Positions 44,639 through 64,000 of a stretch of DNA of 64,000 bases are shown piece after piece. A program made the translations under genes and the position numbers. Source of the DNA: Azolla caroliniana (Eukaryota > Plantae > Polypodiophyta); the NCBI GenBank assembly GCA_043228905.1, contig JBHGNT010000010.1, positions 13,392,001 to 13,456,000 on the forward strand. The letters are read 5' to 3'. The notes beneath the pieces were generated by a model. It saw nothing but the letters and a program-made list of their open reading frames with translations. It did no database searches and had not been told where the DNA came from. Numbering within the stretch: the first letter of the stretch is position 1; each line of letters begins with the position of its first letter.

Positions 44639-46990
44639 TCGTGTAAGTCGGGATGTCGTCTTTGGCGAATCGACATCATGGTACAAACCTGAGCCGACTC
44701 CTCTCAAACCATCTACGAACGACCTTGACAACACAGAAGACGATGATCAACTAAGGTCAATACTCAAAGAGAGTCCAATCTCAACCAAATTGAGCGAACC
44801 ACATGAGCCTCTGAGTAATCAAAGCATATCTCGATCAAGTCCTAAGATGGACAAAGAGAAGGCTAAACTGCTGGAATATGAAGATGATCACTTCGACGGC
44901 AACGAATCGACTCACTCACTCGATAGTGATTTCAATGGCTTTGATGTGTCTCTAATGAGGTCACCCAGAGTAACGAAAGCTCTCACATCGGCAAATGAGA
45001 AACTCCGTCGCTCCACTTGAGAGAAGAATCTGGCTAGCCGATTCGGCTACAACGACTATATGACATACCACTATGCCTTTATGATGAAGGTGGCAGCAGT
45101 TCGAGAACCAGAGAGCTTTGCCAAAGCCACCAAAGATCCACGATGGGTTAAAGCGATGAACAAGGAAATGCAAGCTCTCAGCAAGAATGAGACATGGGAT
45201 CTCGTCCCTCACTCACCACACAAGAAGGCAATCGGCTGCAGATGGATATACAAAGTGAAGTATAATGTCGACGGTTCTGACAACCGCTACAAATCTCGAC
45301 TAGTAGCAAAGGGCTATGCACAAACATAGGGAGTCGACTATGAAGAGACCTTTGCCCCGATGGCAAAGATGAAAACCATGTGGACCGTGATAGTGCTTGC
45401 TGCAGCGAAAGGGTCGCACCTCCACCAGATGGATGTCAAGAATGCCTTTCTTCAAGGTGAACTAGAAGAGAAGGTTTACATGATATAACCACCCGGCTTT
45501 GAATCCAATATTCATCTGAAAGTCGTTTGCCGACTCAAGAAGCCTATCTACGGCCTTAAGCAAGCACCATGTGCTTGGCCCTCAAAGATAACACAATATC
45601 CTCATTGAATCAGCTTCTGAATGTCAAAATCTGACAATTCTCTCTATGTAAGAAGCGATTCCGAAAGTCAAATTGTCATCATCCTATACGTGGGGGTGAG
45701 CATCTAGTCGACATCAACAAGGTCAAGTTCCTCCTCTCCAGCAAATTCGAGATGATGGACATGAAAGAGCTCCATTACTTCCTTGGCATTGAGGTAATCC
45801 GGACTCCAACTGGAGTAATGATCTCTCAACGATACTACATCCTTAACTTGTTATACAAGTTTGGGATGACTGAATGCAAATCTGTGGCAACCCCTTTCAA
45901 TCGAAATCTCAGACTGGATGTCGACTCCGGCACCACAAACTGCGAGTCAACTCAATGTCGAAAACTGATTGGGAGCCTCATCTACCTCATGATCACTCAA
46001 CCTGACCTGAGCTACCTGGTTGGCCTCCTTAGCTAATTCATGCAAACTCCACGAGATATCCATTCGGATTGTGCTAAGCAAGTGGTACGATACGTGAGTG
46101 GTACGATGGACTATGGCATTCTCTATAAGCCGGCCACACCAATTCAACTCGGAGGGTACATAGATGCTGATTGGGCCGACTACAAAGCCGATCGACAATC
46201 AACGTCTGGTTTTGTCTTCTCCCTCCGAAGTGGAGCATGGAGTAGCAAGAAGCAACCAATCCTAGCTCTTTTGACCACAGAGGCAGAATATAGGGGCGTA
46301 GCGGTGGCTGCATCTGAAGTCGTATGACTCAAGAGAATATTGAAGGATCTAGGCGCTCCCATCAAATATCTGATTCCCCTTTACTTTGACAACATGAGCA
46401 GTATTCATCTGGCTTGGAACTCGTTGTTCCACGCACGCACGAAGCATATCAAAGTGCACTATCACTTCATTTGTGAGAACGTTCAGGATGGAGATGTCGA
46501 ACTTCAACACATGAGCAGAAATCTTTAGACAACCGACATCTTTACCAAAGCCCTAGGAGCCACCAAGCATCGGCAATTCATGTCAAACCGTGGATTGATG
46601 ATCCATCTCTTTCCAAGCTTGAGGGGGACTACGTCCGAACCAGGTACCAACCAAAGCGGAAAAAGCGGACCAAAGTTGAGCTTGAGGGGTGTGTTGAGAA
46701 TCAAGCTCAGCCTAATCTGATGTGTGAACACACCCTAGAGAGTGTATGAACACTCAAAGGTCAAAAGTCACACCGCTACTCTCTACACATTAACTATGTG
46801 TCATAGAATCATATTCTATGACACATAACTAATGAGTTTCCCCATTCCCCATGACTCATGATCTTTGGTAGTTAATGAAGAGAGAGAGTGACTATATAAA
46901 GCACTCTCCTCCTACTTTGTTATACGTCGGTTAATCTCCTTTGTAATATACAATCTTCCTGAGTATTTCCAATATATCTATCTTGTGTTT

Positions 46991-47052: not shown

Positions 47053-47217
47053 TATTCCGCTACACAAGAATCACCATCGATTCTTTCCATGAGTATTTGG
47101 TGCACGCACTGAACGTGCTCCACGGTTGGATGCGCCATGAATTGACTAATCAATCCGATCAGATAGCTGAGGTCTGACCGAGTGATGGTCAAATATATAA
47201 GGCTTCTAACTATGTAT
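47053..47217 (-). pseudogene. Copia RT fragment, left half of the target of the Sola2-like element
   Basis: YIVRSLIYLTITRSDLSY; continues in frame from 63143. Confidence 0.8.
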
Positions 47218-49299
47218 CGGAGGGTAAAAGCATGCAAGTGGAAACACTATTATAGCTAATTAGCTACTAAAATGGCCACAACTAATTAGCTATTTGTTTA
47301 GCTAGTTTTTTGTGGGAAAATCATAAGGATGGTTTACAATTTTTTATGTTTTATTAGTTAAATACATGTCATTTAAATTTATGAGAATACTCAAATATTT
47401 GAACTTTGGTTTTTATCGTAGTGGAACATGGGGAATAGTGCCATCATCTAAGGTGGACTTGAATGTCATCAAATTCTTGATAATCCTGAGTTCGAGTTCG
47501 AACTCCAAACAGATGGAGTACTCTAAGCATGAACGCAGACGAAGCCCCCATAGCAACACAAAAACTCTGAGATCGACATTGCACCTTCAAAGCTACAACA
47601 CACGAGCAAGTCGTTCCTCGTCCAGGTATGTATCAGTTACATATTAAAAAAACTTTTTTTTTCCTTTCTGAAACTTTTTTTTTCCTTTCTGATAACTGTC
47701 TGTAACTTTGGTGCTTATTCATCTTTCCCAAAAAATCGAATAGGGCGAAGTCGTTGGAGTCCCAAACAAAGATGTCTTGAAGATCAGGGTGTAGTAGCAT
47801 GTGTGTTTTTTATTGACAGAATTTCGTAGTACGGTTGATTTCTACCTTTAGTGATGATTAGGGTTTGTGTTTCCCTTAAGTGGTTTATGGTTTCAGATTA
47901 CAAATTTTAGATTACAAGTTTCTAATTACAAATTTCATATTACTGTCGCAATCGGTTGTAATTTTGCACCAATTCTCATGACAAATTCTGATTAAGGTTT
48001 CTGATTTTTTAAGTGGTTGATTTCTGATACATGTTGAAAAGGACAGATTACAAATTTTAGATTACTATCTCAAAGTGTTGTAATTTTGCACCAAATACAC
48101 ATTAAAAATTCTGTTTTTGCACCAATTATGATTACTGTTTTGCTATTTCAGGTGGCTCGTTGCTCCCTATCCTAGAGTGCTGAATTTCGAAAAATTTTGC
48201 GACACAAAGGAGGACTTTCACAACATATATGGTCTGTCGCTCGAGGGTATTGACCCTGCTGTTCTAACAGATAGATTGATTAGTGATGTAGACTGGATGT
48301 CAGTATATAAAGTGCCCAGAGTGAAAGGCAAGGTCAAGCTCAAGCATGTACGACCGGACCTATACGACGACTGCATGATATTGCACCAGAAAGTACATAA
48401 AGAGATCCCGGTCAACAACGATTTGTCCGTTTCATTGTGTGTCCACACCGACACACAATGAAAGCCAATGTCAATGATACAGGTGAGACATTGATTAGCT
48501 ATATGCTAAAAAATGTCCATGAAGCTTGTGAGACATTGGAGTTGTTTAAGATTGATTTAGAGAAAACAACATTGGTTGTTGCGATGGAGAGCAAAGTCAC
48601 TTTGGCAGTTACAACAATCAGAAATAAGATTCAGGTACCTATTTTTTGCTAGTATGCAATATGTTATAAATAACTTGTACATGAAAATGTGCTACTGAGG
48701 CATTATCTCGAACAAGTTGCTCAACATGAACTTGAAATTGAGGGGTCGTTGGATCCCCAACGTAAAATTTAACTGCAAACAGAGATCCAAGTTCTTTCAA
48801 TGAACCTGGACCTTCTAGGTGTAAATATTGTCGTTGATTACAATTTGGAAAAGCTACAAGTAAGTTAATGATTCTTGTTTCTTGTTGTTGTATCTTCCTC
48901 ATTAAGGAATATTAATCGTTAACTTTCTCGGTTGTGTTGAAGGAACAATACTCCCGTCAAGAACAGGTTGTTAGCTGCCTTACGAAGCAGCAACATTTTG
49001 CAAAGGGGATGGTAAGGAGTAGACAAGAATTGGACCTGAACATTCTTACTCCCTTACCAAATGAAGGAGAACTAGGAAACGATATATTGATTGTTCAAGC
49101 ACATTGCATCGCTTGTGGATTACGTGTAGAGGACAAATATGCTACTCTCTTGATTCACCTACAACCATGCCAACCCACATACCATATCGTTTGTTTTCAA
49201 TATGCATGTCGCATTGCTGCATTCTGCTTGGGGGATTGTAGTACAGCTCTCCGAGATGTGTGGTGAAAACACACAGGTAAAATTGCAGCTTGTGACCAT

Positions 49300-50185
49300 A
49301 GTGTAGCTAATTACTTTCATCTTTGCTAATTAGGTAAGTTGTATAAAGTGTGGAAACTATTTAGCTATTATGGTTGTAGTGTAGTAGCTAATTACCTAAC
49401 ATGTAGTTAATTAGCTAAGTGGTAGCTAAATAGCACTTACCATAGTTTAGTACAGTAGCTAATTAGCTAAGTGGTGGCTAATTAGCTACTACCATAGTTT
49501 AGTCCACTTACCTAATTTCCTACTACCATAGTTTAATACAATAGCTAAGTACCTACTACCATACTTTGGCAGAGTAGATAATTATGTAAGTGGTAGCCAA
49601 TTAGCTACTACCATAGTTTAGTACAGTAGCTAATTAGCTACTAGCATCAGTTAGCTTAGCTAATTAGCTACTACCATACTTTAGCAGAGTAGCTAATTAT
49701 GTAAGTGGTAGCTAATTAGCTACTACCATAGTTTAATACAGTAGCTAATTAGCTACTACCATAGTTTAATACAATAGCTAATTAGCTACTACCATAGTTT
49801 AATACAGTAGCTAATTAGCTACTACCATAGTTTAATACAATAGCTAATTAGCTACTACCATAGTTTAATACAGTAGCTAATTAGCTAATTAGCTACTACC
49901 ATAGTTTAGTACAATAGCTAATTAGCTAAGTGGTAGTTAAATATCTACTACCATAGTTTAGTACAATAGCTAATTAGCTAAGTGGTAGCTAATTAACTAC
50001 TACCATAGTTTAATACAATAACTAATTAGCTAAGTGATAGCTAATTAGCTAGTACAATACTTTAGTTGAGTAGGTAATTAGCTAGTACTATACCTAAGCA
50101 AAGTAGCTAATTAGCTAAGTGGTAGCTAATTAGCTACTATCATAGTCTAGAAGAATAGGTAGTTAGCTAAGATGTAGCTAAGTAG
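49300..50185. repeat. Satellite array, ~33-bp unit with palindromic core TAGCTAATTAGCTA
   Basis: Unit starts at 49742, 49775 and 49808; fills intron 49277-50202. Confidence 0.92.
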
Positions 50186-50432
50186 CGACCATGTTGTTGT
50201 AGAATCTTGTGGATTAAGGAGGGCGCATGAGCTGTCTGTTGCTGATGACGTTGTAACTGATGAGGAGATAATTGCCAACGTGGCTGAAAGTAAGAGTCCT
50301 ACTATCACATCTCCTTTAGATCAGCTCCACCCTATTCTTTTGGAAGATGGTAATGAATTAGGCAACGATGTGAAAAGTCATGAAATATTGGAAACAACAT
50401 GTAAATCTGAGGTTCACAACAATAGTGATTTT

Positions 50433-51065
50433 TGTTAGAAATATTGAGAATCGAGTAGATAGGTATATAGAGTTACAACTGCAGAGATGGATATATGAAA
50501 ACAGAATTTCTATTACATATGAGAGTAGTTCAAAATGGTAGTTTTCCCATGCGCTCACACCTTAGAACTTAGATAGGATATGGACCGGCTCACTACAAAA
50601 TTAGTGGGGACTCATGATCAATCTGACCACTGTGTGAGAAAAGTGACTTATAATCTATGTTTGGTCTTAGTATAAATGTGCAAGTCAGTTGACAGTAGTG
50701 GAGATATTCCTTTTCTGTCAACTGACTTGTCATTTAATATGACCCAACTCCCTAGGTACAGGCTAGTGCTAGATAATACTTATCTTGAAGTCAATGACAC
50801 ATACTTCAAGACTAAGTACATCGTAACTTGCCCACAAAATATTCTAGCTGACTTGATTAGACAATCCTTTTATCTATTTCTCTCTTTCCTAAATGTATTG
50901 TGTCCTACGCATCTACGGTTTCCTAGATTAACACCTTATCGACCCATATGGTCGAGTTGCACACTAGCCGCTCCTCATTTGGGGCGCTATCACAAAATGT
51001 GCACTCTAAGAGCACATATGGGGATAGATTTACAACTTGGGGCTGATCATTGATTATATCTAACA
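50433..51065 (-). repeat. 3' LTR of the young Copia
   Basis: Direct repeat of 55262-55894, TG..CA. Confidence 0.97.
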
Positions 51066-52691
51066 CGCCCCCTCAATGATCAACCCATTGAGTTCACTTG
51101 GAATTGGGCCAACACCTAATCGTCGAAGGTGTTGTTGCAACTGTTCTGCTCCAAGCGCCTTTGTGAAGATATCTGCAGCATTTTCTGATGTTGGACAGTA
51201 CTCAAGCTCCACAATCTCATCATTTATTAGCTCCCGCACATAGTGATACTGAATCTCTATGTGTTTAGTACGTGCATGAAATACGGGGTTCTTGGCAATG
51301 GCCATGCAACTCTGATTGTCACACCTCAATACCGTTGCCGTCCTTATTGGGACTGCCACATCCATAAGGATTCTTCTTAGCCAAACTACCTCGCATGCCG
51401 CTATGCATGTTGCTTTGTATTCTGCCTCCGTTGAAGATAGTGCCACTGTTGGTTGTTTTTTACTACTCCATGAAACAGCTCCAGATCCTATTGAAAAACA
51501 ATATCCAGAAACTGATTTTCTGGAATCACTATCTCCAGCCCAATCGGAGTCGCAATATCCACTAAGTTGGTCAATTGTTGGCTTGTAGAAGATTCCATAA
51601 TTTAAAGTACCCACAATGTACTTTAATACACGTAGAGCAGCTTTCCAATGAGTCTCCTTCGGCTTGTTGCTGAATCGACTCACCACATTGACTGCAAAAC
51701 AAATATCCGGCCTAGTGTTGCATAGGAAAATTAGACTTCCTACTAGTTGTCTATACTTCCTTATGTCAACCATTGGTGATGAGTCTTCTTGGGATAGCTT
51801 GCAGTTTGACTCCATTGGAGTCGACTTCGACTTGCTGTCCATCATCCCGAAGGTCTTCAAGATCTCTGTTGCATACTTTCTTTGTGACATGAAGATGCCG
51901 ACCGAGGTTTGCCAAACCTCAATTCCAAGGAAGTAGTGTAGAATCCCCAAGTCTGTCATTTCAAACTCAGTTTTCAAACACTCTTGTGTTTGGCCAATGC
52001 ACTCTTCATGGTCACCAGTAAGTACTAGATCATCCACGTAAATGATAATGATGACTTGTTTCCCGTCCTTCATTTTGACATACATACTTGCATCCGAAGC
52101 ACATTGCTTAAAGTCGATTGATCGTAAGAAGCTGTCTATCCTCTTGTTCCAAGCTCTTGGTGCTTGCTTTAGACCATATAGTGCCTTCTTCAGCTTGCAA
52201 ACTTTGTTTTCTGAATTCGGTATCTCAAACCCCGGTGGTTGTGTCACATATACCTCCTCCTTGAGATGCCCATTCAGAAATGCTGATTTGACATCCATTT
52301 GATAAATCGGCCATCCTCTTGAAGCAGCCAACGCTATGACCATTCGAATTGTTGTCATGCGAGCTGTCGGGGCAAATGTTTCTTGTACATCGAACCCTTC
52401 AATTTGGGAGTATCCTTGCGCTACTAGCCTGGCCTTGAATTTCTCCAAAGAGCCATCAGCTTTATACTTTACTTTCCATACCCACTTCGTGCCTATCACC
52501 TTCTTCTTTGTTGGCCTCTCTACCAACTCCCATGTGTCATTTTTCATGATGCTATCATATTCTGATATCATCGCCTCTTTCCACTTCGGGTCGGCCATAG
52601 CTTCCTCCACCGAGGTCGGCTCACTCACTGAGCCTATGATGTCCACCATCAGAGCCATGTTGACAATGTGGTCAGAGGTTCTTCCTTGCTC
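51060..52691 (-). CDS. Copia RT-RNase H, same frame as the upstream ORF
   Basis: [39 protein letters not shown]. Confidence 0.95.
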
Positions 52692-55154
52692 CTATATTCT
52701 TCTTGATCTTCGTAATCCATCAGTTGAAGTTTCAGGAAACTCAACTTTAGGAGTATGATCATTGAAGAGTTGTTGAGCCCACTTAGGTATTTTCTTTACA
52801 TGTGGGACTGGCATAGGCTGAACTAGTGAACCATTACCATCAGATGGTTCAGCTTCCTTTTTTGGATAATGGGTCGGGATTGGGTAAAATACTTCTTCAG
52901 TTGATGAGATAACTTGAGAATCGTTGTTCTCAGCTAGCTGTGGTTGTTCCTCATCGAACACCACATCGCGGCTTGTCAATATCTTTCTTGCCTCTGGATC
53001 GTAGAGTCGATAGGCCTTTGACTCTTCACTATATCCGAGAAAGATACACTTTTTGCTTTTAGCATCCAACTTCTTTCTGCTCACATCTGGAATATGTGCG
53101 TAGCACATACACCCAAAGGTTCTGAAGTGCAGTACTGAAGGTTTCTTGCCTGAATAAGCTTCTTGGGGTGTTTTCCCTTGAAGTGCCTTCGTGTAGCTCC
53201 GATTGAGGATGTAAACTGCTGTGTTCACTGCTTCAGCCCAGAATGGGTCGGGCAGCGCTTGTGCCTTCAACATACACCTAGCCATCTCGACAACTGTTCG
53301 ATTTCGACGTTCGACAACGCCATTTTGTTGTGGGGTGTAGGCAGTTGTAAGTTGGCGCTTAATTCCATGCTCTTTGCAATACTCACAGAATTCTATTGAT
53401 AAGAATTCTCCACCTCGATCAGAGCGTAGCTCCTTCACTAACTTTCCAGACTCTCGCTCGACAAACTTATGCCATCTTTTGAAGATTTTAAAAGCTTCAG
53501 CCTTCTCCCGAAGGAAGTAAACCCACATCTTTCTGCTGAAGTCGTCGACTATTAGCATATAGTAGAGAGATCCACCCATTGCAGGAATCACCATTTTTCC
53601 AGAGAGGTCAATGTGTATTAGCTGTAGAGGAGTCTTTGCCCGATTTTGACTCTCTTTTGGAATGGCTGATCTTTGATGCTTGCCCATCATACAAGCATCA
53701 CAAACATGACTTAAGTCAGATAGGGTTGGCAACCCAACTACCATATTCGACTTCTTCATCTCCTTCAACACAGCAACGTTGAGATGCCCAAATCTCTCAT
53801 GCCATTGCTTTGTGTTGGTACTTGTGCTGTGGTCAGTAGAAATGGTAAACGCGCTTAGCTCATAGAGATTGTTGAGCCTCACCCCTATTCCTACAACCTT
53901 GCCAGCAGAATCTGTTATTTCTGCACCCGACTTCTTGAATCGAACATCAAGACCCTTGTCAGTCAGTGCAGAAATGGACAGTAGATTCTTCTTCAGATCT
54001 GGCACGTACAACACTTGAGAGAGATGCTTTGTCCCACCGGTCGTTGCTTTGAGGGAGACGGTTCCGGTTCCTTTGGCCGGACATCGAGCATTGTTCCCGA
54101 CCACAACATTGATGGGCTCTTGTAGAGGTGTCCAAGAACTGTACCAGTCACGATTACTAGTCATATGTCGGGATGCTCCACTATCGAGAATCCAAGACTC
54201 ATCAACAACTTGAGTGTCAACTGAAGAACACACTTCTTCAGTTGCGACCCATAACTCAAGTTCATCTACGACATTGTTAGCGGACTCGGGCTCTCTCCAA
54301 GAAGTCTTATTAGAACCATTCTTCTCATCCGCCATCTTCTTTCGACAATCCTTGATTGTGTGACCCTTCTTGTCACAGTAGAAACACGATCCATTGAACT
54401 TCTTCTTCTTCGGTATCCTATTCGCATTGTTTGAATTGGATGCCCCTTCACCCTTAGTCCTAGAGACAAATGCTGAATCTTCCCTTTCTTCTCTTGTCTT
54501 CAGCCGAAGCTCCTCTTCAAGCAGCATTGCACTTAGTTCATCAAAATTTAAAGGAGTGGGTCGAACCTGAGTGTTCAATGCTGTCACAATGCCATCATAC
54601 TTGAAAGGAAGTACTCGAATGCACCGACGAGCCATATCCTCTTGAGAGACGACTACTCCAACAGCCGCCAGCTGATCTTGAAGATCCTTAATCCTTTTTA
54701 CAAAGGATCCTACTTTCTCTCCATCAGCGAGCTTCTCTACAGCAAGCTGATTTTCGAGGTTTTGTATCCTTGTATAGTTTCTGGTCTCATACTGGCTGGC
54801 CAATATGCTCCAAGCTTCATGTGCCCTAGTTGTATGTTGCACTAGTGTTAGTACGGAGTCACATACACCAGTGACTATGGTACATAGCGCATCAGCATTC
54901 CTTCTCTTCCAGGCTCGAAGTAGATCAGCATTTGGAGGAATTGATGTGGTAGGCTGTGCAGGGTCAAAGGTTGCCATGGGCTCAGGGTCTCCCCCTGTGG
55001 GTCCCATGATTGTTTCCAACAACTCGTAGGAATCCAAAATGGCAGACATTTTGAACTTCCATAGAGTGTAGTTAGTTCCATCTAGCTTTCCATCAGACAA
55101 TGGAGGTGGGCGAATGCGCAATGGAGCAGCTGCAACATTCGTGGACAAGGCCAT
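52692..55154 (-). CDS. Copia gag-protease-integrase (820 aa), ending at an in-frame TAG
   Basis: CFYCDKKGHTIKDC, WILDSGASRHMT, WHERFGHLN, LRSDRGGEF, PQQNGVVERRNRT. Confidence 0.95.
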   Translation of the reverse strand: MALSTNVAAAPLRIRPPPLSDGKLDGTNYTLWKFKMSAILDSYELLETIMGPTGGDPEPMATFDPAQPTTSIPPNADLLRAWKRRNADALCTIVTGVCDSVLTLVQHTTRAHEAWSILASQYETRNYTRIQNLENQLAVEKLADGEKVGSFVKRIKDLQDQLAAVGVVVSQEDMARRCIRVLPFKYDGIVTALNTQVRPTPLNFDELSAMLLEEELRLKTREEREDSAFVSRTKGEGASNSNNANRIPKKKKFNGSCFYCDKKGHTIKDCRKKMADEKNGSNKTSWREPESANNVVDELELWVATEEVCSSVDTQVVDESWILDSGASRHMTSNRDWYSSWTPLQEPINVVVGNNARCPAKGTGTVSLKATTGGTKHLSQVLYVPDLKKNLLSISALTDKGLDVRFKKSGAEITDSAGKVVGIGVRLNNLYELSAFTISTDHSTSTNTKQWHERFGHLNVAVLKEMKKSNMVVGLPTLSDLSHVCDACMMGKHQRSAIPKESQNRAKTPLQLIHIDLSGKMVIPAMGGSLYYMLIVDDFSRKMWVYFLREKAEAFKIFKRWHKFVERESGKLVKELRSDRGGEFLSIEFCEYCKEHGIKRQLTTAYTPQQNGVVERRNRTVVEMARCMLKAQALPDPFWAEAVNTAVYILNRSYTKALQGKTPQEAYSGKKPSVLHFRTFGCMCYAHIPDVSRKKLDAKSKKCIFLGYSEESKAYRLYDPEARKILTSRDVVFDEEQPQLAENNDSQVISSTEEVFYPIPTHYPKKEAEPSDGNGSLVQPMPVPHVKKIPKWAQQLFNDHTPKVEFPETSTDGLRRSRRI

Positions 55155-55261
55155 TGATACTCTGTCTCTCTATCTCTCTCTCTCTCTCTATTTCTCTCTG
55201 TTGCTAGACAGCAACTACCCGTATATACCTAATCTAGATCAACCTCTTCGCTCTGATACCA

Positions 55262-55894
55262 TGTTAGAAATATTGAGAATCGAGTAGATAGGTATATAGA
55301 GTTACAACTGCAGAGATGGATATATGAAAACAGAATTTCTATTACATATGAGAGTAGTTCAAAATGGTAGTTTTCCCATGCGCTCACACCTTAGAGCTTA
55401 GATAGGATATGGACCGGCTCACTACAAAATTAGTGGGGACTCATGATCAATCTGACCACTGTGTGAGAAAAGTGACTTATAATCTATGTTTGGTCTTAGT
55501 ATAAATGTGCAAGTCAGTTGACAGTAGTGGAGATATTCCTTTTCTGTCAACTGACTTGTCATTTAATATGACCCAACTCCCTAGGTACAGGCTAGTGCTA
55601 GATAATACTTATCTTGAAGTCAATGACACATACTTCAAGACTAAGTACATCGTAACTTGCCCACAAAATATTCTAGCTGACTTGATTAGACAATCCTTTT
55701 ATCTATTTCTCTCTTTCCTAAATGTATTGTGTCCTACGCATCTACGGTTTCCTAGATTAACACCTTATCGACCCATATGGTCGAGTTGCACACTAGCCGC
55801 TCCTCATTTGGGGCGCTATCACAAAATGTGCACTCTAAGAGCACATATGGGGATAGATTTACAACTTGGGGCTGATCATTGATTATATCTAACA
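55262..55894 (-). repeat. 5' LTR of the young Copia
   Basis: Direct repeat of 50433-51065, adjacent to the iMet PBS. Confidence 0.97.
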
Positions 55895-56849
55895 ATTTTG
55901 AACACTTGATGCAACATTTCTTCGAATCTCAAAACCTTGATTCCACCCCACTGAGCCCAACTACTGATAATGTCCAAATAGATCCCACTCTACTGGAAAA
56001 GCTAGTGCAAGACGCGACTGACCTGCAAGCCGCTGCTGAGGTGTTGGAAAGGTTATTAGAGGAGGACACACTTGCGCAATGGGTCAAAGAAGCAAGGCTA
56101 AATGGGCAACCGCCTAGAAAAAGGCTGAAGAAGGGGCCACGATCAGGGACAAGACCAGTTACTCGGTCAAGGGGCTCTTGATTTGGAGCGAAATACTTAT
56201 TAGTGGGATATGATTATTAGCTATTTTCCTAGGGTTTTATGAAGTTTTACTATGATCTATTTGGACAAGTAAAACCTTAGATTGGTTGTTGTTTGATCCA
56301 CATTATGTAATGGAACTCTATGATGTTTCTCCAAGATAATTATGTTCATGTTGTTCTATGATGGAAAATATTTCATGTTCATTATGTTGTTTTGTGAGAC
56401 TGTTAGTTACTTTGTGAGTGTGAATATGTTGGTGTTTTTTGATGTTGCAGAGTCTAAAGGGTTTGAATCTATTGCTCCTAAGGCCAATGGCAATGTGGAA
56501 ACTGTTGATGTTGCTGCGTGTTTAGAGGGCCACATCTTGAAAGTAGATGTAGCAACTAACACAAATGATCTGGTCACGCAAGTTGATGAAGCATGTTGCA
56601 CAGATGATCTGATTTTGCAGGTAGATGGAGCATGTGATACCGTGGGCTGATATCGACTAGATTAGTATCTACATGCACTGAGCCAATGACTAAGTCGACA
56701 ACACAAGAGCACCAGAATGTGAAGCCAGGCCCAACATAGTCGACTAGGGGTTTAAAGAGGAAAAGGATAGCAATTGTGCTGACAAAACTTGAGTTGATTG
56801 AAATTGATCGTGTGCTACCAGTAATTGGTGTAACAGATGCGCAGTTATA

Positions 56850-57240
56850 GGAATGGAAACCTAAACCATTAGAAGTCGAAAGAAGAGCCTTGATCTTGGA
56901 GCTTGATAAAGTCCTGATGAGTGTGCGATATATGATACCAAGGAGGGACACAAATCAATTTCTAGAGTGGGTTGTGCAATACTTTGATCTGTTTATTTGG
57001 AGTGAAAAACCACGTACAGATGTGTGGAAGTGTGTAGAAAGATTCTTCCCGAAGTGGCGACAACATTTCAAGGGTCAGTGGACACGAGAGAATTGTGAGA
57101 AGAATGATGTTGCAAGATTCAAAAGACTGTTTTATTTTTAGGACACTTGGCCAAATTATAATGCTGACAATACATTGATTCTGGATACAGAACATTTCCG
57201 ACATTAACTTCAACATTCGCAGATGCTGTCTCATTATACC
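56850..57240 (+). pseudogene. FCP1/NIF (HAD superfamily, CTD-phosphatase-like) domain remnant carried in the transposon
   Basis: RALILELDKVL..PRRDTNQFLEW...FDLFIWS...WTRENC...WP..NTLILD follows the NIF domain pattern; in-frame stops; ExD instead of DxD. Confidence 0.6.
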
Positions 57241-57800
57241 CGATGAAATGCCTGAACACTATTTGCTAAAAAATTGAGCCGCCAACTAGTTACATGGTTG
57301 GGGACTCCATACTGAGCTCGGTATGCAGATCATATATGTAGAGAAGTTCCATTGACCAGTAAGAGCTTAAGTGTTCATAGGCAATTTCAAGACATTGGTA
57401 ATGGGATGTTATAAATATATAATTTGATGACAGATTAATCAATGAAGAATTAAATTGCTTGTTTTGAGTAACTTATCTACTGTGTAATTTTAAGAGTGTG
57501 TTCAGGATTGTTGATTTCATGATAGTACTTTTTCTTAAAATTATGTAAACTATTTTAACTTGTACATGGTTCACTTGAGTAAATCTGTATATTAGAAAGA
57601 AGAACCCTAAACGATATTATTAAACTGGTTTTTAAGAAAGAAGAATAGAACGAAGACTGTATATAAAAAAGACACACGATTTTGTTGAGAAAGAAGCACA
57701 AAAAGTAGACTGTATATAAAAAAAAACTCCTTTCAATTGTTTATTTGCAATACATGTGCTTTGTTTGTTTTACAAGAAAACTGGTAATTGCTACTTGTAG

Positions 57801-60800
57801 CTACAAATTCCATGGCATACTGTTGTAAATACATTCATACACATTAGCAGTAACTGTGTATAAACCTGAGTAGCTATTGTATTGGGACATTAGGACATTG
57901 ATGCACCTGACGAAATGAGAGTACATGTACGCCATTGATTTGTCTTCTAATAGCCTATACACATAATCGTAATCATCTAGTCTTGCATAAAAAATACCTT
58001 CAATGTAGAATGTCCCGGTAGATACAACATTTTCCCAAGCATGTAATATATTCTGCGTTGCACACTGTTTACTAACCGTGCACTTCAATATATAGAAATC
58101 AACACCCTCTGAATTGTCTTCTTCTGCATTTACAACGAAATTATCCCCAACATTTAAGACGTCACTCAGAGTATCTCCACGTCCTTAATATGTGAAGTCA
58201 GCATTCTTTTCTGTTTCTCCATCAACTGCTTCCTTATCGTTCAATGTATGATACTCCCAATTTTGAATCTATGCTTTGTTTAAACAATACCTCCAGTTTC
58301 CTTGCACAAAATGGAAGCAAAAACAAGTTAATTCTCTAACCGCAATACAATGACCATCCAACCTAGAATAACCGCGAACAACATGGAGAGATCGCAATTC
58401 GGGAATTTCTTGGCACTAGCAGGTCTTCTCCCTATTTACTTCATCTATATTCACTTCCCAAAATTCACGTTTGATATCTCGGACCTACGAGGAATAAACA
58501 CCAGTTACACTCGTTGACATATTAGCTCTTAAAAATTCAACTACATGTGCTTGCACAATTCATCTGCACACCATCTGCCTTTAGTTGTTCATGGGTAAGT
58601 GCCCGCTTTATAACAACACCTACACCATTATGTTCACCTTTACCATGGCCAGACCCAAAAAAAAACCATCTCATCTCCAAAGCTGTTATAGTAGGATACC
58701 TCCCCACAAAATAAAATGGACGTCTAGCCTTGATTTGTGACGCAACTCCATCAGACCACACCCAATGTTGAGTAACCTCCAAACGTTTAGCTAATAACCA
58801 TTGCCAATGTAAGTTAAAACAACGTTGGACGAACAAGGTACCATGCTTCTTATCATTAGAAATAAAATAATGAATTACTTTTTTAACATCACCTGAAACT
58901 CGAAAATATGTTATGTGCACAAAAATGGTTACCTATGCTGAACACCAATGCATAGATTAAATTTCATTTTGCTGCTTGAAAGTATAATTCTCTACGAAAT
59001 CTACTGCTGAGACTACTACATCATTTGGAAAATCAGATATGCAAGTCTTAAACTGATGGGCTTGCCATGAATAAATGAAGTTGTGTTTAATGAACTTTCC
59101 TAGAGATGCCAAATCCCTTGGTTTAAGCGACTTCCTAACTAGATCCATTCTTTTACACACCTTTCCTTCGAAATTGGTGTCAACTGACTCAAATCACTTG
59201 ACAGAGATTAGTATTTCACTACTCAATTCATTTGGACACCACTTAAATCTACTAGGACCACAATCTTGACATAAACCCATGACACATTTATGACTATGGA
59301 AGATGGTCTCAGTTTCTATCGGACACAATACTGAATCTAAAAGACAACTCATGGAAGAGATAACATGCTCAGATGATTTACAGTGCTCATGCGGGCTCGA
59401 TCGACAAATTGGGCACACACAAGTGCAAATTGCATTTGTTAGGGAGGCGCTATGGTGACGTAGTAGATTAACAGAGTCCTTGAGAAAACCCATCTGTACA
59501 TTGTAAAGCAACAACATGTGTATCGATCCTTCAAGTGTCTCACAAAGTGTGGCTTAAGAGACTCGAATGTTCGTAGTTCAACTTTGATATTTGTATGCAT
59601 TCGCCTGAACCTAATAAATAAATCGACATGCGTAATAAAATGGACATACTGATTAGCTATATGGCTAAGTTGTAGCTAATTAGCTACTACTATAGTTTAG
59701 TAAAGTAGCTAATTATCTAAGTGGTAGCTAATTAGTTACTACCATAGTTTAGTACAGTAGCGAATTAGCTAAACCCTAGCTAATTAGCTACTACCATAGT
59801 TTAGTATAGTAGCTAATTAGCTACTACCATACATTAGTTGAGTAGCTAATTAGCTAAGTGGCAGCTAATTAGCTACTACCATACATTAGTTGAGTAGCTA
59901 ATTAGCTAAGTGGCAGCTAATTAGCTACTACCATACATTAGTTGAGTAGCTAATTAGCTAAGTGGCAGCTAATTAGCTACTACCATAGTTTAATACATTA
60001 GCTAAGTGGTAGCTAATTAGCGACTACCATAGTTTAGTATAATAGCTAATTAGCTACTACCATAGTTTAATACAATACCTAATTAGCTACTACCATAGTT
60101 TAGTATGATAGCTAATTAGCTAACTAGCTACTACCATAGTTTAGCACAGTAGCTAATTATCTACTACCATAGTTTAGTACAATAGCTAAATAGTTAAGTG
60201 GTAGCTAATTAGCTACTACCATACTTTAGTTATAGTGGCTAATTAGCTACTACCATACTTTAGTTATAGTGGCTAATTAGCTACTACCATCCTTTAGCTC
60301 AGTCGCTAATTATCTAACTAGTAGCTAATTAGCTACTACCATACTTTAGCTGAGTAGCTAATTAGCTACCACTTAGCTAGTTATAGTGGCTAATTAGCTA
60401 CTACTATACTTTAGTTGAGTCGCTAATTAGCTAACTGACAGCTAATTAGCTACTACCATACTTTAGCTAAGTAGCTAATTAGCTACCATAGCTAATTAGC
60501 TACTACCATACTTTAGCTGAGTAGCTAATTAGCTAAGTGGTAGGTAATTAGCTACTACCATAGTTTAGTACAGTAGCTATTCCAATAGGGGATTAGCAAT
60601 TCTGGTAGCTAATTAGCTACTATGGTAGCTAATTAACTATTGTTAAAGGCAGCTAATTAGCTATTGTGGTAGCTAAATAACTATGAATGGTAGCTAATTA
60701 GTTATTCTGGTAGCTAAATAGCTATGTTCGATATACTTAGGAAGCTAATTAGCTATTTTGGTAGTTAATTAGCTATTACTGGTAGCTAGTTAGCTATGGT

Positions 60801-61570
60801 CATATTTTGAGGTAGGTAATTAGCTATTTGGGTCATATTCAGAGGTAGCTAATAAGCTAACTAACTAAGCTCTAAAGTCAAAACAAATGTTGAGATAAAT
60901 GTAAATACCTGAGGTACATCAAGAAGATGAATGGGATGCTCCTCGTATTGACTCTTTCCAACACGTTTCCTGCATAAATCCTTCTTATTGGGTGAAACCC
61001 TACTCTCATTAGTCCAAAATATTGTGATTATATCCTTGATTTTCTGATGTTATGGGTGTCATTGGCTTACATCTTGTTGTTAGCTTTAGTAGACTAGTTC
61101 CTTCACCCGAGGAAACTATCCGGTTAAATGTATTGTACACACTTTTTCTACTAACACCAATTACCTTAGATAGCACACTGATGTTAATATCGTCAACATC
61201 ACTATTAAGTAACATCATTAGCTAGACCTTTTTAAGCCAAGATCATCTTCTGACCTGCTCATGGATACGAAACTATTACGAAGATTATTTACTAGTACAG
61301 ATGTTATGTTTGCATTAAGACCATCACAATAAACTAACATGGATCATTTAATATTCCATAAAGTACTGCCTTCTTGTCTTCATTGTTGATATGCTTGGTT
61401 TGAACATTGAAATAGTCTACAACCTTTCTCTCTATGATAGTAGTCTCATTACTTCCATTCTCGGTGATATTTAGACCTATATCCCAACCAATACTATCTT
61501 TACCTTTAGTGAGTGTGACTTTCATATCCTTCAACAATTGACGATGTTTTCTTCTTCTTTTTCTCCCCAA
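57801..61570 (-). pseudogene. Decayed intron-containing Sola2-like transposase
   Basis: FWTNESRVSPNKKD, FESLKPHFV..TCCC, DFVENYTFKQQNEI-SMHW, WSDGVASQIK, FFGSGHGKGEHNG, RELTCFC; intron ~59628-60908; several stops and frameshifts. Confidence 0.8.
59655..60870. repeat. Second TAGCTAATTAGCTA satellite array, inside the transposase intron
   Basis: Same unit as 49300-50185; orientation of the flanking sequence flips near 60590. Confidence 0.92.
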
Positions 61571-61814
61571 TACTTTCGTATCGCTTGTTGTGTCCTAATA
61601 GTGTCATCCCTATCCTGATGATCAATGAGGGGTAATTCTAAACACCCTCATTCCCCTTCCATTTGGCTTGACGAGTTTAAACCCTAATTTTCCCGAAAAA
61701 AAGACACATATTAAAGATGGCTATGGGCAACAACAATACACAAAAATATTCCGCAATACACAAGATTATATACAACAATACACAAGATAATCAATAGACA
61801 AAATAGTTATTCAA

Positions 61815-62810
61815 ATCCAAGACCGAACAATTGCGGTAATCTAGGGCCGAATAGTGGCGGCAATTGAGTGTAGAATGGCGGCAGTGGAGGAGTGAACTCC
61901 GTTTGATCGAACAGTTTTGACAATCCAGGACCGAACAATGGGGACAACTGAGTGTAGAATGATGGCAATGGAGGAGTGAATTCCGCTGGATCGAACAATG
62001 GCAGATGATTCTTGGAACGCACAGTGACGACAATTGAGAGTAGAATGGTAGTAGTGGAGAAGGAGTGAACTCCTTCGGATCGAAAAGTGGCAGCAATACA
62101 CCACCGAATAGTAGCGGCAACTAAGTGTAGATTGATGACAATGGATGAGTGAATTCCGTCAAATCGAAAAGTGGCAGCAATCTAGGACTGAGCAGTAGCG
62201 GCAACTAACTGTAGAATGATGACAATGGAGGAGTGAACTCCGTCAGATCGAATAGTGGCAGATGATGCTTGGAACGTACAGTGACGACAATTGAGAGTAG
62301 AATGGTAGCAGTGGAGAAGGAATGAACTCCTTTGGATCGAAAAGTGGCAGCAATACACCACCGAATAGTAGCGGCAACTAAGTGTAGAATGATGACAATG
62401 CATGAGTGAACTCCGTCAAATCGAAAAGTGGCAACAATCTAGGACTGAGCAGTAGCGGCAACTAACTGTAGAATGATGACAATGGAGGAGTGAACTCCGT
62501 CAGATCGAACAATGGCAGATGATGCTTGGAACGCACAATGATGGCAATTGAGAGTAGAATGGCGGCATTGGAGAAGGAGTTAACTCCATAAGAGTGAAAA
62601 GTGACAACAATATACGACCTTCACAGTAGTGGCAACTGAGTGTATAGTGGTGGCAATGGAGGAGTGAACTTGGTAGATGATGCTTGGACTGAATAGTGGT
62701 GGCTATTGAGTGCAAAATGACGACAATGGAGGAATGAACTTCGTCGGATTGAACTGTGGTAGATGATACTTGGACCACACAGTGCCGGTAACTGAGTGTA
62801 GAATGGCGGC
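61815..62810. repeat. ~85-bp tandem repeat with a 257-bp (three-monomer) higher-order period
   Basis: Monomers at ~61861, 61946, 62031, 62118, 62202, 62288, 62375, 62459, 62545; closest matches lie 257 bp apart. Confidence 0.85.
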
Positions 62811-63142
62811 TTAGCAATGTGGTAGTAATCTAAGCTAGAATACTAAACCAAAGATGGCCCACATGATGTGGCAAAGGATCATGCATAATGGACCTAGGAA
62901 TTCGGTATATAATTTATGGTGCACATATCAATTTATGTTGCATGTTTATGTTGCACATTTATGGTGCTCATTTATATAATTAAAACTCTCTACTATTTTC
63001 AATGGTAGCTTTTTGCATAGCTATTTTATCAATGGTGACATTTTGCCAACATGACTATTTATCAATGGTAGCTTTTTGCATAGCTAATTAGCTATGTCAA
63101 GGACATAGCTAATTGTTTCCACTCGCATGCTTTCACCCCAGA

Positions 63143-63350
63143 ACATTTTCGGGTCACATGTCATTTCACATTCCGGTTTAGAGGAATTGAAACGGAATTG
63201 CATTCCATCATACTGAATTTGAAAAGCATACTCAACACATAGTGACATTGAGTAATCAGTATGCCTTCCGTGATGCAGATCACTTTGATCCTAAGGAAGT
63301 AATCACGGTTCCCAAGATCGTTCATGTCAAACGATGCCGAGAGTTTGGAT
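63143..63350 (-). pseudogene. Copia RT fragment, right half of the target of the Sola2-like element
   Basis: FDMNDLG..YFLRIKV, VLSMLFKFSMMEC, CDPKMF. Confidence 0.8.
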
Positions 63351-64000
63351 TGTCAGCACACAAACAAGAGAAAAGGATAGGGATATGTAGAAGAAGTAGA
63401 ATAGAGATATTATGATTATAAAGAGAGAATATGCAACTAACAGTTAACACACGAACAAGAGAAAAGATACAGTTTCTTGTCAAAGCAGAATGCTCAGATA
63501 TTTATTATTATAAAGAGAAAATGTTACAACTAGAGAATTAAGAGAATGACTGATAATGTAGGCTAGAGGGCTTGAGACTAGTGTTGAACTGGAATAACTT
63601 GAAAATAGTGAGGGGCTTCAATTTAGTAGGAGATTACGCATGCAGGAGCAAGCAATGCCACGTGTCATCCCTTCATGAGTTTCCTTAAATGTTCTAGAGT
63701 GTTCCATAATGTTCTAAAGTGTTCTATAATGTTGTATGCATACATATCTTAATAATGACCCATAATCACATAATCTAAATGACCCAACGGGTAAGGTGCT
63801 ATGAGATGAGTGATAGGGGTCGAGGGTTCGAGCTTTGGCATGACCAATATTCATGATACTATCCCCCTCTTAAAACGACGAGTGCCACGAGTCGCCAATG
63901 ACGAAAGGCTAGGTTTTTTGGATACTTGCGATGGAAGGCATTTGAGCATTAGTAACATTGTCAACAGGCTCCCAAGTACGATCATTGGGACCGTATCCAA
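63351..64000 (-). mobile_element. 3' end of a chromovirus (Tcn1-like) Gypsy: chromodomain, PPT and 3' LTR (63351-~63858)
   Basis: Minus-strand GYGPNDRTWEPVDNVTNA chromodomain at the window edge; PPT AGAGGGGGATAG 63859-63870; LTR ends ...CTGACA at 63351. Confidence 0.82.
63780..63835 (+). ncRNA. tRNA-like A/B-box cassette inside the chromovirus LTR (putative)
   Basis: TGACCCAACGG 63780-63790 and GGTTCGAGCTT 63825-63835 at tRNA-like spacing. Confidence 0.4.

What the first reader, a model, noticed from the sequence alone, without database searches (positions are those of the whole stretch)
47222..63138. Giant Sola2-like transposon in a plant, carrying spliced accessory genes
Seen: 25-bp TIRs with GGG...CCC ends; TSD CGGA/CAGA, one CpG-type transition apart; excision restores an in-frame Copia RT. 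The element is ~10.4 kb without the nested Copia and holds a minus-strand transposase (DFxENY..Q.EI..HW, SDG..SQ.K, GHGKG..G, CFC) converging on plus-strand cargo. Known, from memory: Sola elements make 4-bp TSDs, Sola2 has GRG termini, and it is described mainly from animals and protists. Inference: a multi-gene plant Sola2 lineage whose extra genes may aid transposition or counter silencing.
Basis: partly seen in the sequence, partly recalled or inferred. Interest (0 to 1): 0.85.

Follow-up and report, generated by a model that had tools for sequence, protein, structure and literature searches.

The report
Plant Sola2 transposon with regulator cargo
This is a broken copy of a multi-copy 10.4-kb cut-and-paste transposon family from a plant that carries a predicted RING-finger gene, a likely dead RNA-polymerase-tail phosphatase and arrays of one palindrome, which together likely help the element keep itself switched on.

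Summary
The element is real. 25-bp inverted repeats (47222-47246, 63114-63138; 2 mismatches) and a 4-bp duplication bound it. It sits in a decayed Copia reverse transcriptase and is 10,450 bp without a younger nested Copia. The minus-strand transposase has every Sola2 motif of a published Repbase alignment, but this copy is dead; an unbroken relative is 85% identical. The same end occurs at 21 different junctions elsewhere. The closest named relatives come from Klebsormidium, a liverwort and a moss.

New here: the cargo is a RING-H2-like zinc finger gene and an FCP1/NIF phosphatase-like gene whose first catalytic aspartate is glutamate in 11 of 11 relatives covering it. A 14-bp palindrome occurs 76 times, only inside the element: beside both ends and in two predicted introns. 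This layout matches the VANDAL/VANC anti-silencing layout, so self-activation is my best reading, but it is untested (about 0.35).

Sola2 is already reported in cypress, and cargo-bearing Sola elements in Ectocarpus and slime moulds. Splicing and expression are not shown. Verdict: new variant of a known kind.

The parts
47055..47217 (-). Host Copia RT fragment, downstream part (not part of the element)
   Evidence: tblastn to RT residues 314-356, E 6e-6
47218..47221 (.). Left target-site duplication CGGA
47222..47246 (+). Left 25-bp TIR
   Evidence: same end at 9 distinct other junctions
47253..47292 (.). Two subterminal copies of the 14-bp palindrome TAGCTAATTAGCTA (one exact, one with 2 mismatches)
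   Evidence: also in L007, L016
47513..47625 (+). Cargo gene 1, predicted exon 1 (ATG to GT donor)
   Evidence: open frame and donor kept in L007 and L016; L016 differs by an in-frame 9-nt length change
48152..48859 (+). Cargo gene 1, predicted exons 2-3: domain of no known family, broken in this copy; internal boundaries unresolved
   Evidence: no Pfam or PDB match
48943..49276 (+). Cargo gene 1, predicted exon 4: RING-H2-like zinc finger (one histidine ligand lost in this copy)
   Evidence: Atlas 0.96, RING clan; 7 relatives; all 8 ligands in 4 of the 6 full-length relatives; Pfam only E about 0.05
49277..50202 (+). Predicted intron holding palindrome array 1 (27 copies, up to 2 mismatches)
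50203..50432 (+). Cargo gene 1, predicted exon 5, first part
   Evidence: joined to 55899 in other copies (table 5)
50433..55894 (-). Nested young Copia LTR retrotransposon (not part of the family)
   Evidence: LTRs 632 of 633 identical, TSD ATTTT; gag, integrase, RT Pfam hits
55900..56178 (+). Cargo gene 1, predicted exon 5, second part; basic end resembling a nuclear localisation signal (by eye)
56451..57414 (+). Cargo gene 2 (or last exon of gene 1): FCP1/NIF phosphatase-like domain with ExDxV in place of DxDx(T/V); broken in this copy
   Evidence: PF03031 E 4.7e-6, above cut-off; 13 relatives; Atlas 0.96; P0237 maps to 56932-57411 at 73%; motif count
57801..59627 (-). Transposase exon B: zinc-binding region, DDD core, C-terminal region; 7 stops and 2 frameshifts in this copy
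   Evidence: 85-87% identical to unbroken P0001 in three pieces; stop count
59628..60908 (-). Predicted transposase intron holding palindrome array 2 (46 copies); acceptor AG not intact in this copy
   Evidence: P0028 aligns on both sides of it, residues 124-166 and 168-213
60909..61662 (-). Transposase exon A (N-terminal part, weak helix-turn-helix signal), frameshifted; start codon inferred
   Evidence: HTH_29 E 4.6e-4, below cut-off
61838..62830 (.). Tandem repeat of 84-bp / 257-bp units upstream of the transposase gene
63081..63094 (.). Subterminal palindrome, exact
63114..63138 (-). Right 25-bp TIR
   Evidence: same end at 12 other junctions
63139..63142 (.). Right target-site duplication CAGA
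63143..63352 (-). Host Copia RT fragment, upstream part (not part of the element)
   Evidence: RVT_2 E 3.8e-9; RT residues 236-298

Best explanation
This is a dead copy of a multi-copy, 10.4-kb Sola2-type DNA transposon family of a plant whose members carry a predicted RING-finger gene, a likely inactive FCP1-type phosphatase gene and arrays of one 14-bp palindrome, and an element-encoded protein likely binds those palindromes so that the cargo would keep the element's own genes active. Shown: ends, TSD, Sola2 motifs, many insertion sites, cargo sequence present in other copies, palindrome confined to the element. From family knowledge: the DDD transposase cuts at the TIRs and inserts with a 4-bp stagger, here mostly at AT-rich sites. 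Inferred: the palindrome is a site for a dimeric element-encoded binder (cargo protein 1's unassigned N-terminal domain, or the transposase N-terminus); the RING finger would ubiquitinate a host chromatin or silencing factor at the arrays; the D-to-E NIF domain would hold a phosphoprotein such as the Pol II tail without removing the phosphate. I put the identity at about 0.9 and the self-activation mechanism at about 0.35.
For: Identity. All four motif blocks of the Repbase Sola2 alignment recur in the 22-row clade holding P0001, and in full in P0001-P0009. Family-wide cargo: contigs of 5 DNA-type runs from 4 coded organisms cover all 30 of 30 bins. The Copia-free join 50427-55899 is seen in other copies. 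Left TIR is linked to cargo exon 1 in L007 (89% DNA identity) and L016 (74%). 13 NIF and 7 RING relatives. Palindrome: 76 of 76 window matches at up to 2 mismatches lie in the element, 73 in two predicted introns and 3 beside the TIRs. VANC binds a short motif in tandem repeats in introns and terminal regions of VANDAL (PMC5735166). A giant Sola1 with a proposed self-marking cargo is published (PMC12477816).
Against: No RNA evidence of splicing or expression: no spliced joint in the 3 RNA-or-unknown runs laid. No copy was seen whole, so linkage of all cargo to both ends in other copies rests on pieces. No DNA-binding domain could be assigned in the cargo. The RING call is weak by Pfam (best E 0.048) and the Atlas recognition value was below its threshold; its last cysteine pair is spaced by three residues. 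No dN/dS could be computed. Transposases can activate their own copies without accessory genes (abstract). The tree has no named Sola1 or Sola3 rows.
Confidence: 0.5

Rival explanations
1. Same element, but the cargo is captured host gene material that hitchhikes without benefit, as in Pack-type elements. The palindrome is only a transposase-binding subterminal motif that spread into introns by slippage.
For: The motif sits 6-32 bp inside both TIRs, where transposase sites are expected (general knowledge of hAT/CACTA, recalled). The NIF domain lacks its first catalytic aspartate. Many fetched cargo relatives are truncated or frameshifted.
Against: Exon 1 frame and donor survive at 74% DNA identity. 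ExDKV is fixed in 11 of 11 relatives that cover it, including P0235, which is 59% identical to the window's piece. All 8 RING ligands are kept in 4 of 6. Two separate arrays of 27 and 46 copies lie far from the ends.
Confidence: 0.22
2. The cargo is a transposition cofactor rather than an anti-silencing factor: it binds the palindromes to bring the ends together, or sets transposase level through ubiquitination.
For: Palindromes flank both TIRs. Two-gene tail-to-tail layouts are known for Harbinger (passage).
Against: Sola2-1_Ec32 is listed as complete and autonomous at 4.6 kb with no extra gene noted, so Sola2 transposases seem not to need a partner. 73 of 76 palindromes are internal.
Confidence: 0.15
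3. The arrays are read in trans by a protein of another element, such as the ParB-methyltransferase of Sola1 families that earlier AI notes report in the same genome.
For: The eight notes listed for this genome describe Sola-type elements with a DNA methyltransferase gene, most of them also with palindromes (unchecked). No ParB or methyltransferase hit among the element's own frames.
Against: The notes do not show the palindrome's letters, so I could not test whether it is the same word (one search dropped the motif). No match lies outside this element in the window.
Confidence: 0.08
4. The transposase belongs to a sister group that would be classed outside Sola2 (another Sola subgroup or an unnamed lineage).
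For: No tree with named Sola1/2/3 could be built; the defining paper was not held.
Against: Motif-by-motif match to 14 named Sola2 transposases. AWWT, the Sola1 hallmark, fits only 1 of 21 junctions.
Confidence: 0.05

Closest known systems
Sola2 group of the Sola superfamily (Repbase Sola2-n_HM, _AAe, _SP, _BM; alignment in additional file 10 of PMC3627910, read in full)
   Same: DF(A/S)ENY..Q.EIQS.HW, SDD..HD, SDG..(S/A)Q(F/Y)K and HGK..DG motifs; upstream 'F..LRP...TC.C..H' block; 4-bp TSD; short TIRs starting with G; predicted length about 850 aa
   Different: Plant-associated clade; palindrome array inside a predicted transposase intron; two converging cargo units
Sola2-Fanzor1 chimeric elements of Dictyostelium fasciculatum and Polysphondylium pallidum (PMC3627910, passages and additional files 10, 11)
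   Same: Sola2 transposase plus a passenger gene; short TIRs; AT-rich 4-bp TSDs
   Different: Cargo there is a TnpB-like nuclease that varies between families; here RING-like and NIF-like genes
Sola1-1_Ec32 of Ectocarpus (PMC12477816, passages and supplement rows)
   Same: Large Sola element with an accessory gene on the strand opposite the transposase, proposed to act on the element's own chromatin; 4-bp TSD
   Different: Sola1, 21.5 kb, 282-bp TIR, ParB-methyltransferase cargo; none of these here
Sola2-1_Ec32 of Ectocarpus (supplement row of PMC12477816)
   Same: Sola2, 26-bp imperfect TIR, GG start, 4-bp TSD
   Different: 4.6 kb, no extra gene noted
VANDAL/VANC anti-silencing system of Arabidopsis (PMC5735166, passages)
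   Same: Works-like comparison only: a DNA transposon with accessory genes and a short motif amplified as tandem repeats in introns and terminal regions
   Different: VANDAL is a Mutator-like element (recalled); no VANC similarity was detected (no Pfam hit); binding and demethylation are shown there and untested here
FCP1/SCP (NIF, PF03031) phosphatases (PMC9426563, passages)
   Same: Pfam and Atlas assignment of cargo 2
   Different: DxDx(T/V) is ExDxV in the whole family; TIM50 is the named NIF member that also lacks the motif

Membership tests
Sola superfamily | DDD-type transposase | tested here: met
   Three aspartates in DFAENY, SDG and HDG in P0001-P0009; in the window copy the third reads N. 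Feature from PMC10741241. Which aspartates are catalytic is inferred from conservation.
Sola superfamily | 4-bp TSD | tested here: met
   CGGA/CAGA, 3 of 4 identical, length fixed by the host RT register. One copy only: none of the 22 other loci holds both ends.
Sola superfamily | Terminal inverted repeats that bound many copies | tested here: met
   22 loci, 21 distinct flanks, 10 left-type and 12 right-type ends
Sola2 | Transposase similarity to named Sola2 proteins | tested here: met
Sola2 | Phylogenetic placement among Repbase Sola1/2/3 | not testable with these tools
   Tree of 109 of 160 hits has no named Sola rows; Pfam has no Sola model
Sola2 | GRG termini | tested here: inconclusive
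   Ends are GGG in all 22 loci, but the pattern searched demanded that. The GRG rule is recalled; Bao et al. 2009 not held. Published Sola2 ends seen: GGCGG, GAA/GAG and others.
Sola1 | AWWT target preference | tested here: not met
   1 of 21 junctions; hallmark stated in PMC3845634. Targets are AT-rich: 67 of 84 bases against 59% background, p 4e-5.
Sola3 | TTAA target (recalled, no call) | tested here: not met
   1 of 21 junctions
ParB-methyltransferase Sola (Sola1-1_Ec32 type) | ParB-like plus amino-methyltransferase accessory gene | tested here: not met
   No such Pfam hit in 20 frame pieces of the element (13, 5, 2; some overlap)
FCP1/SCP (NIF) phosphatases | PF03031 domain | tested here: met
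   Above Pfam cut-off for the window piece, P0235 and P0237
FCP1/SCP (NIF) phosphatases | DxDx(T/V) catalytic motif | tested here: not met
   ExDKV in the window and in 11 of 11 relatives that cover it; 5 of 16 examined do not cover it. Register inferred from the Pfam match; the fold model was unusable.
RING-H2 E3 ligases | C3H2C3 ligand pattern | tested here: inconclusive
   C-x2-C-x17-C-x-H-x2-H-x2-C-x10-C-x3-C complete in 4 of 6 full-length relatives; Pfam below cut-off; Atlas neighbours all RING clan
VANDAL/VANC-type anti-silencing | Element-encoded protein binds the repeated motif and removes silencing | not testable with these tools
   Only the layout of the arrays could be compared

The most novel reading that the evidence does not exclude
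A streptophyte Sola2 lineage has evolved its own sequence-specific anti-silencing kit, unrelated to VANC and to the ParB-methyltransferase of Sola1: a palindrome-binding RING E3 ligase that removes host silencing proteins from the element, plus a dead FCP1-type phosphatase that grips the phosphorylated RNA polymerase II tail to keep the element transcribed.
Probability: 0.2. Interest if true: 0.8.

Novelty: new variant of a known kind. Interest (0 to 1): 0.52.

Why it matters
Few transposon-encoded counter-silencing systems are understood. VANC is the best-studied plant case. This family offers a testable candidate built from different parts (a ubiquitin-ligase finger and a pseudo-phosphatase) with a ready-made candidate target, a 14-bp palindrome. 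If the mechanism holds, intronic motif arrays plus an accessory protein would be a design that Mutator-like, Sola1 and Sola2 elements reached independently, and a new tool for site-specific epigenome editing. If it fails, the finding still documents a widespread, structurally undescribed Sola2 lineage of seedless plants and streptophyte algae, which matters for annotation: its pieces appear in databases as unnamed host proteins.

Tried and rejected
No whole genome is held, so copies could not be collected directly. Transposase scans of viral contigs and genome contigs found no relative. A 20-base TIR scan of genome contigs gave one hit, L023, with no similarity to the window beyond the pattern; rejected as chance. 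Expression: no RNA holder listed. Of three RNA-or-unknown runs laid, one gave nothing and two gave short unspliced contigs; this says nothing either way. Summed contig depth was not used as a copy number, as the tool warns. Both structure predictions were too poor to search with (mean pLDDT 43 and 40), so no fold search was run. PDB sequence searches gave nothing useful: none for P0237, chance-level for A1 and exon 2. For the RING alignment the top hit was a repeat-inflated carbonic anhydrase match that I reject; a RING E3 (DTX2) came at E 0.68. No phage match for the NIF protein. My recollection that the Physcomitrium paper PMC7466625 describes Sola families was wrong: no mention. Bao et al. 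2009 is not held. A search for a published D-to-E SCP1 mutant found nothing, so 'D-to-E is likely inactive' rests on the motif's stated role and recall. Searches for a published RING/CTD-phosphatase transposon cargo or a plant Sola2 description found none; subscription journals and Repbase Reports are not covered, and the cypress preprint's Table 3 and supplements were not seen and may describe its Sola2 families. The cargo N-terminal domain stayed unassigned.
Full report
1. Observation. The ends are real. The left end at 47222 and the reverse complement of the right end at 63138 agree at 23 of 25 bases and then diverge. Allowing 3 mismatches, these are the only two matches in the window, against 0 in 100 shuffles. 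The flanks are CGGA and CAGA. Both flanks encode Copia reverse transcriptase on the minus strand in the right order: residues 236-298 on the right, 314-356 on the left, measured against the nested Copia's RT. The residues next to the junction fall in register with that RT only if the element plus 4 bp is discounted, which supports a 4-bp TSD independently. The host is not an intact frame: it is 22 nt short and has a stop just upstream of the junction. A Copia is nested at 50433-55894, with 633-bp LTRs differing at one base and a perfect ATTTT duplication. Without it the element is 10,450 bp. Order of events: host Copia, then this element, then the young Copia.

2. It is a family. An exact TIR scan of metagenome contigs gave 22 loci: 10 left-type and 12 right-type ends, 21 distinct flanks (L012 and L019 are the same). 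None holds both ends, so the TSD length is tested in one copy only. The four bases outside the TIR are AT-rich (67 of 84, background 59%, p 4e-5); AWWT fits 1 of 21 and TTAA 1 of 21. Contigs of four DNA-type runs (coded organisms A, B, B, C) cover 30 of 30 bins of the element, cargo included; so does a fifth, organism D. The join 50427-55899, the form without the nested Copia, appears in three of the first four runs, and a near-identical join in all four. No contig spans the element, and depth is not a copy number.

3. Transposase. It lies on the minus strand in two predicted exons. Exon B (59627-57801) is 85-87% identical to the unbroken 604-aa protein P0001. This copy has 7 stops, 2 frameshifts, a 5-residue deletion and N at the third conserved aspartate, so it is dead. 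Exon A (about 61662-60909) has a weak helix-turn-helix signal. A liverwort protein, P0028, aligns on both sides of the 1,281-bp gap between the exons. Pfam has no model for it, as reported for Sola (PMC5751038, passages). Its motifs match, block by block, the 14 named Sola2 transposases in additional file 10 of PMC3627910 (read in full; motif table). This is a by-eye comparison. P0001 has 6,093 relatives at E up to 0.001 among 50%-identity representatives. I built a quick tree from 109 of 160 hits; 51 were dropped for covering under 80% of the core. P0001 falls in a 22-row group with SH-aLRT 100 whose named members are Klebsormidium subtile and K. nitens. Calypogeia fissa and Ceratodon purpureus proteins are also top hits but were among the dropped rows. 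The nearest named animal hit, Lineus, lies outside. Of 20 representatives looked up, 5 carry an organism name. The tree holds no named Sola1 or Sola3, so it does not test the subgroup.

4. Cargo. Gene 1 has five predicted exons on the plus strand with GT-AG sites, in matching phase for introns 1, 3 and 4; the exon 2-3 boundaries are unresolved. Exon 1 keeps its frame and donor in L007 and L016, the latter only 74% identical in DNA. Exons 2-3 match nothing. Exon 4 holds a RING-H2-like finger: the Atlas neighbours are all RING clan (top 0.96, recognition below threshold), and all eight ligands are present in 4 of 6 full-length relatives among 7 found, but Pfam gives only E about 0.05. Cargo 2 (56451-57414) is an FCP1/NIF phosphatase-like domain: PF03031 above cut-off, Atlas top cluster 'FCP1 homology domain', mostly Streptophyta among the few with a record. 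FCP1/SCP enzymes rely on DxDx(T/V) to dephosphorylate the Pol II tail (PMC9426563, passages). Here it reads ExDKV in the window and in 11 of 11 relatives that cover the motif (16 examined), so the change is a family trait and not decay. Whether cargo 2 is a separate gene or a last exon is open. Whether the more distant NIF relatives sit in Sola2 elements is unknown. No ParB or methyltransferase was found.

5. TAGCTAATTAGCTA occurs 32 times exactly and 76 times with up to 2 mismatches, always inside the element: 27 in the predicted intron after the RING exon, 46 in the predicted transposase intron, 3 just inside the TIRs. Spacing is mostly 33 and 19 bp. The two arrays are 71-79% alike and point the same way although their genes face each other.

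6. How it likely works. Shown: a TIR-bounded, multi-copy, cargo-bearing element. From family knowledge: cut-and-paste by a DDD transposase with a 4-bp stagger (PMC10741241, passage). Inferred: the palindrome is a protein-binding site, and the cargo acts on the element's own chromatin. The closest working model is VANDAL/VANC, where the accessory protein binds a short motif amplified as tandem repeats in introns and terminal regions and removes methylation (PMC5735166, passages). I put this at about 0.35. Hitchhiking cargo with a transposase-bound motif is the main rival; transposases can themselves activate cognate copies (bioRxiv 10.64898/2026.08.24.746577, abstract only). No binding, enzyme activity, splicing or expression was shown.

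7. What is known. Sola is reported from Physcomitrella as Sola1 (PMC9033089, table passage) and as 'SOLA' from Azolla (PMC6786969, passage). Sola2 is named the most abundant DNA transposon group of Cupressus sempervirens (bioRxiv 10.64898/2026.07.23.736688, one passage). Most Sola elements are 2-9 kb and some exceed 15 kb. Sola2 with Fanzor cargo is known from slime moulds. A 21.5-kb Sola1 with a ParB-methyltransferase gene, and a 4.6-kb Sola2 with 26-bp TIRs, are known from Ectocarpus (PMC12477816, passages and supplement rows). Also seen as passages, without changing the reading: PMC4455052, PMC3985635, bioRxiv 2021.09.26.461848. The defining paper was not held. My searches found no description of a RING plus FCP1-like cargo or of palindrome arrays in a Sola2 element. 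Earlier AI notes report similar Sola elements with FCP1-like or ubiquitin-type cargo and palindromes in other genomes; these are leads, not support.

8. Verdict. Observation confirmed, with one correction. A Sola2 member by every test I could run, phylogenetic placement excepted. Plant Sola2 and cargo-bearing Sola are not new; this cargo set and the array layout appear to be undescribed. New variant of a known kind; interest 0.52.

Noticed in passing
L006:2700-2860 against window 63090-63160: A right end of this family sits at the same codon position and orientation in the RT of a different Copia subfamily as the window's insertion (flank only 16 of 25 bases alike). One such coincidence among 21 junctions; may be chance, a chimeric low-coverage contig or a weak site preference.
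   Followed up: partly
window 50433-55894: The nested Copia is very young (1 difference in 633-bp LTRs) and has two long open frames. Contigs of run X18 (RNA is only a guess) match it at 99-100%.
   Followed up: partly
window 61838-62830: 84-bp / 257-bp tandem repeat upstream of the transposase gene; copy number differs in other runs (joints at 61829-61888 in X11 and X13). It may be a promoter repeat; untested.
   Followed up: no
window 49300-50200 and 59640-60880: The two palindrome arrays have the same orientation on the plus strand although their host genes converge. Some contigs join one array to the other, which could be internal deletion derivatives or mapping artefacts of the repeat.
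   Followed up: partly
P0184 cluster: An unbroken family transposase is recorded on 15 contigs, the longest 10,576 bp, close to the 10,450-bp element length; possibly whole elements. They could not be fetched.
   Followed up: no
window 1-47000 and 63400-64000: The rest of the window is a nest of mostly decayed Gypsy- and Copia-like LTR retrotransposon pieces (a further Copia RT fragment at 45021-46525). I saw no host gene among frames of 150 aa or more, by eye.
   Followed up: partly
L007, L009, L011, L014, L015, L018: 6 of 22 loci carry Copia coding sequence in the flank, consistent with insertion into retrotransposon-rich DNA.
   Followed up: partly
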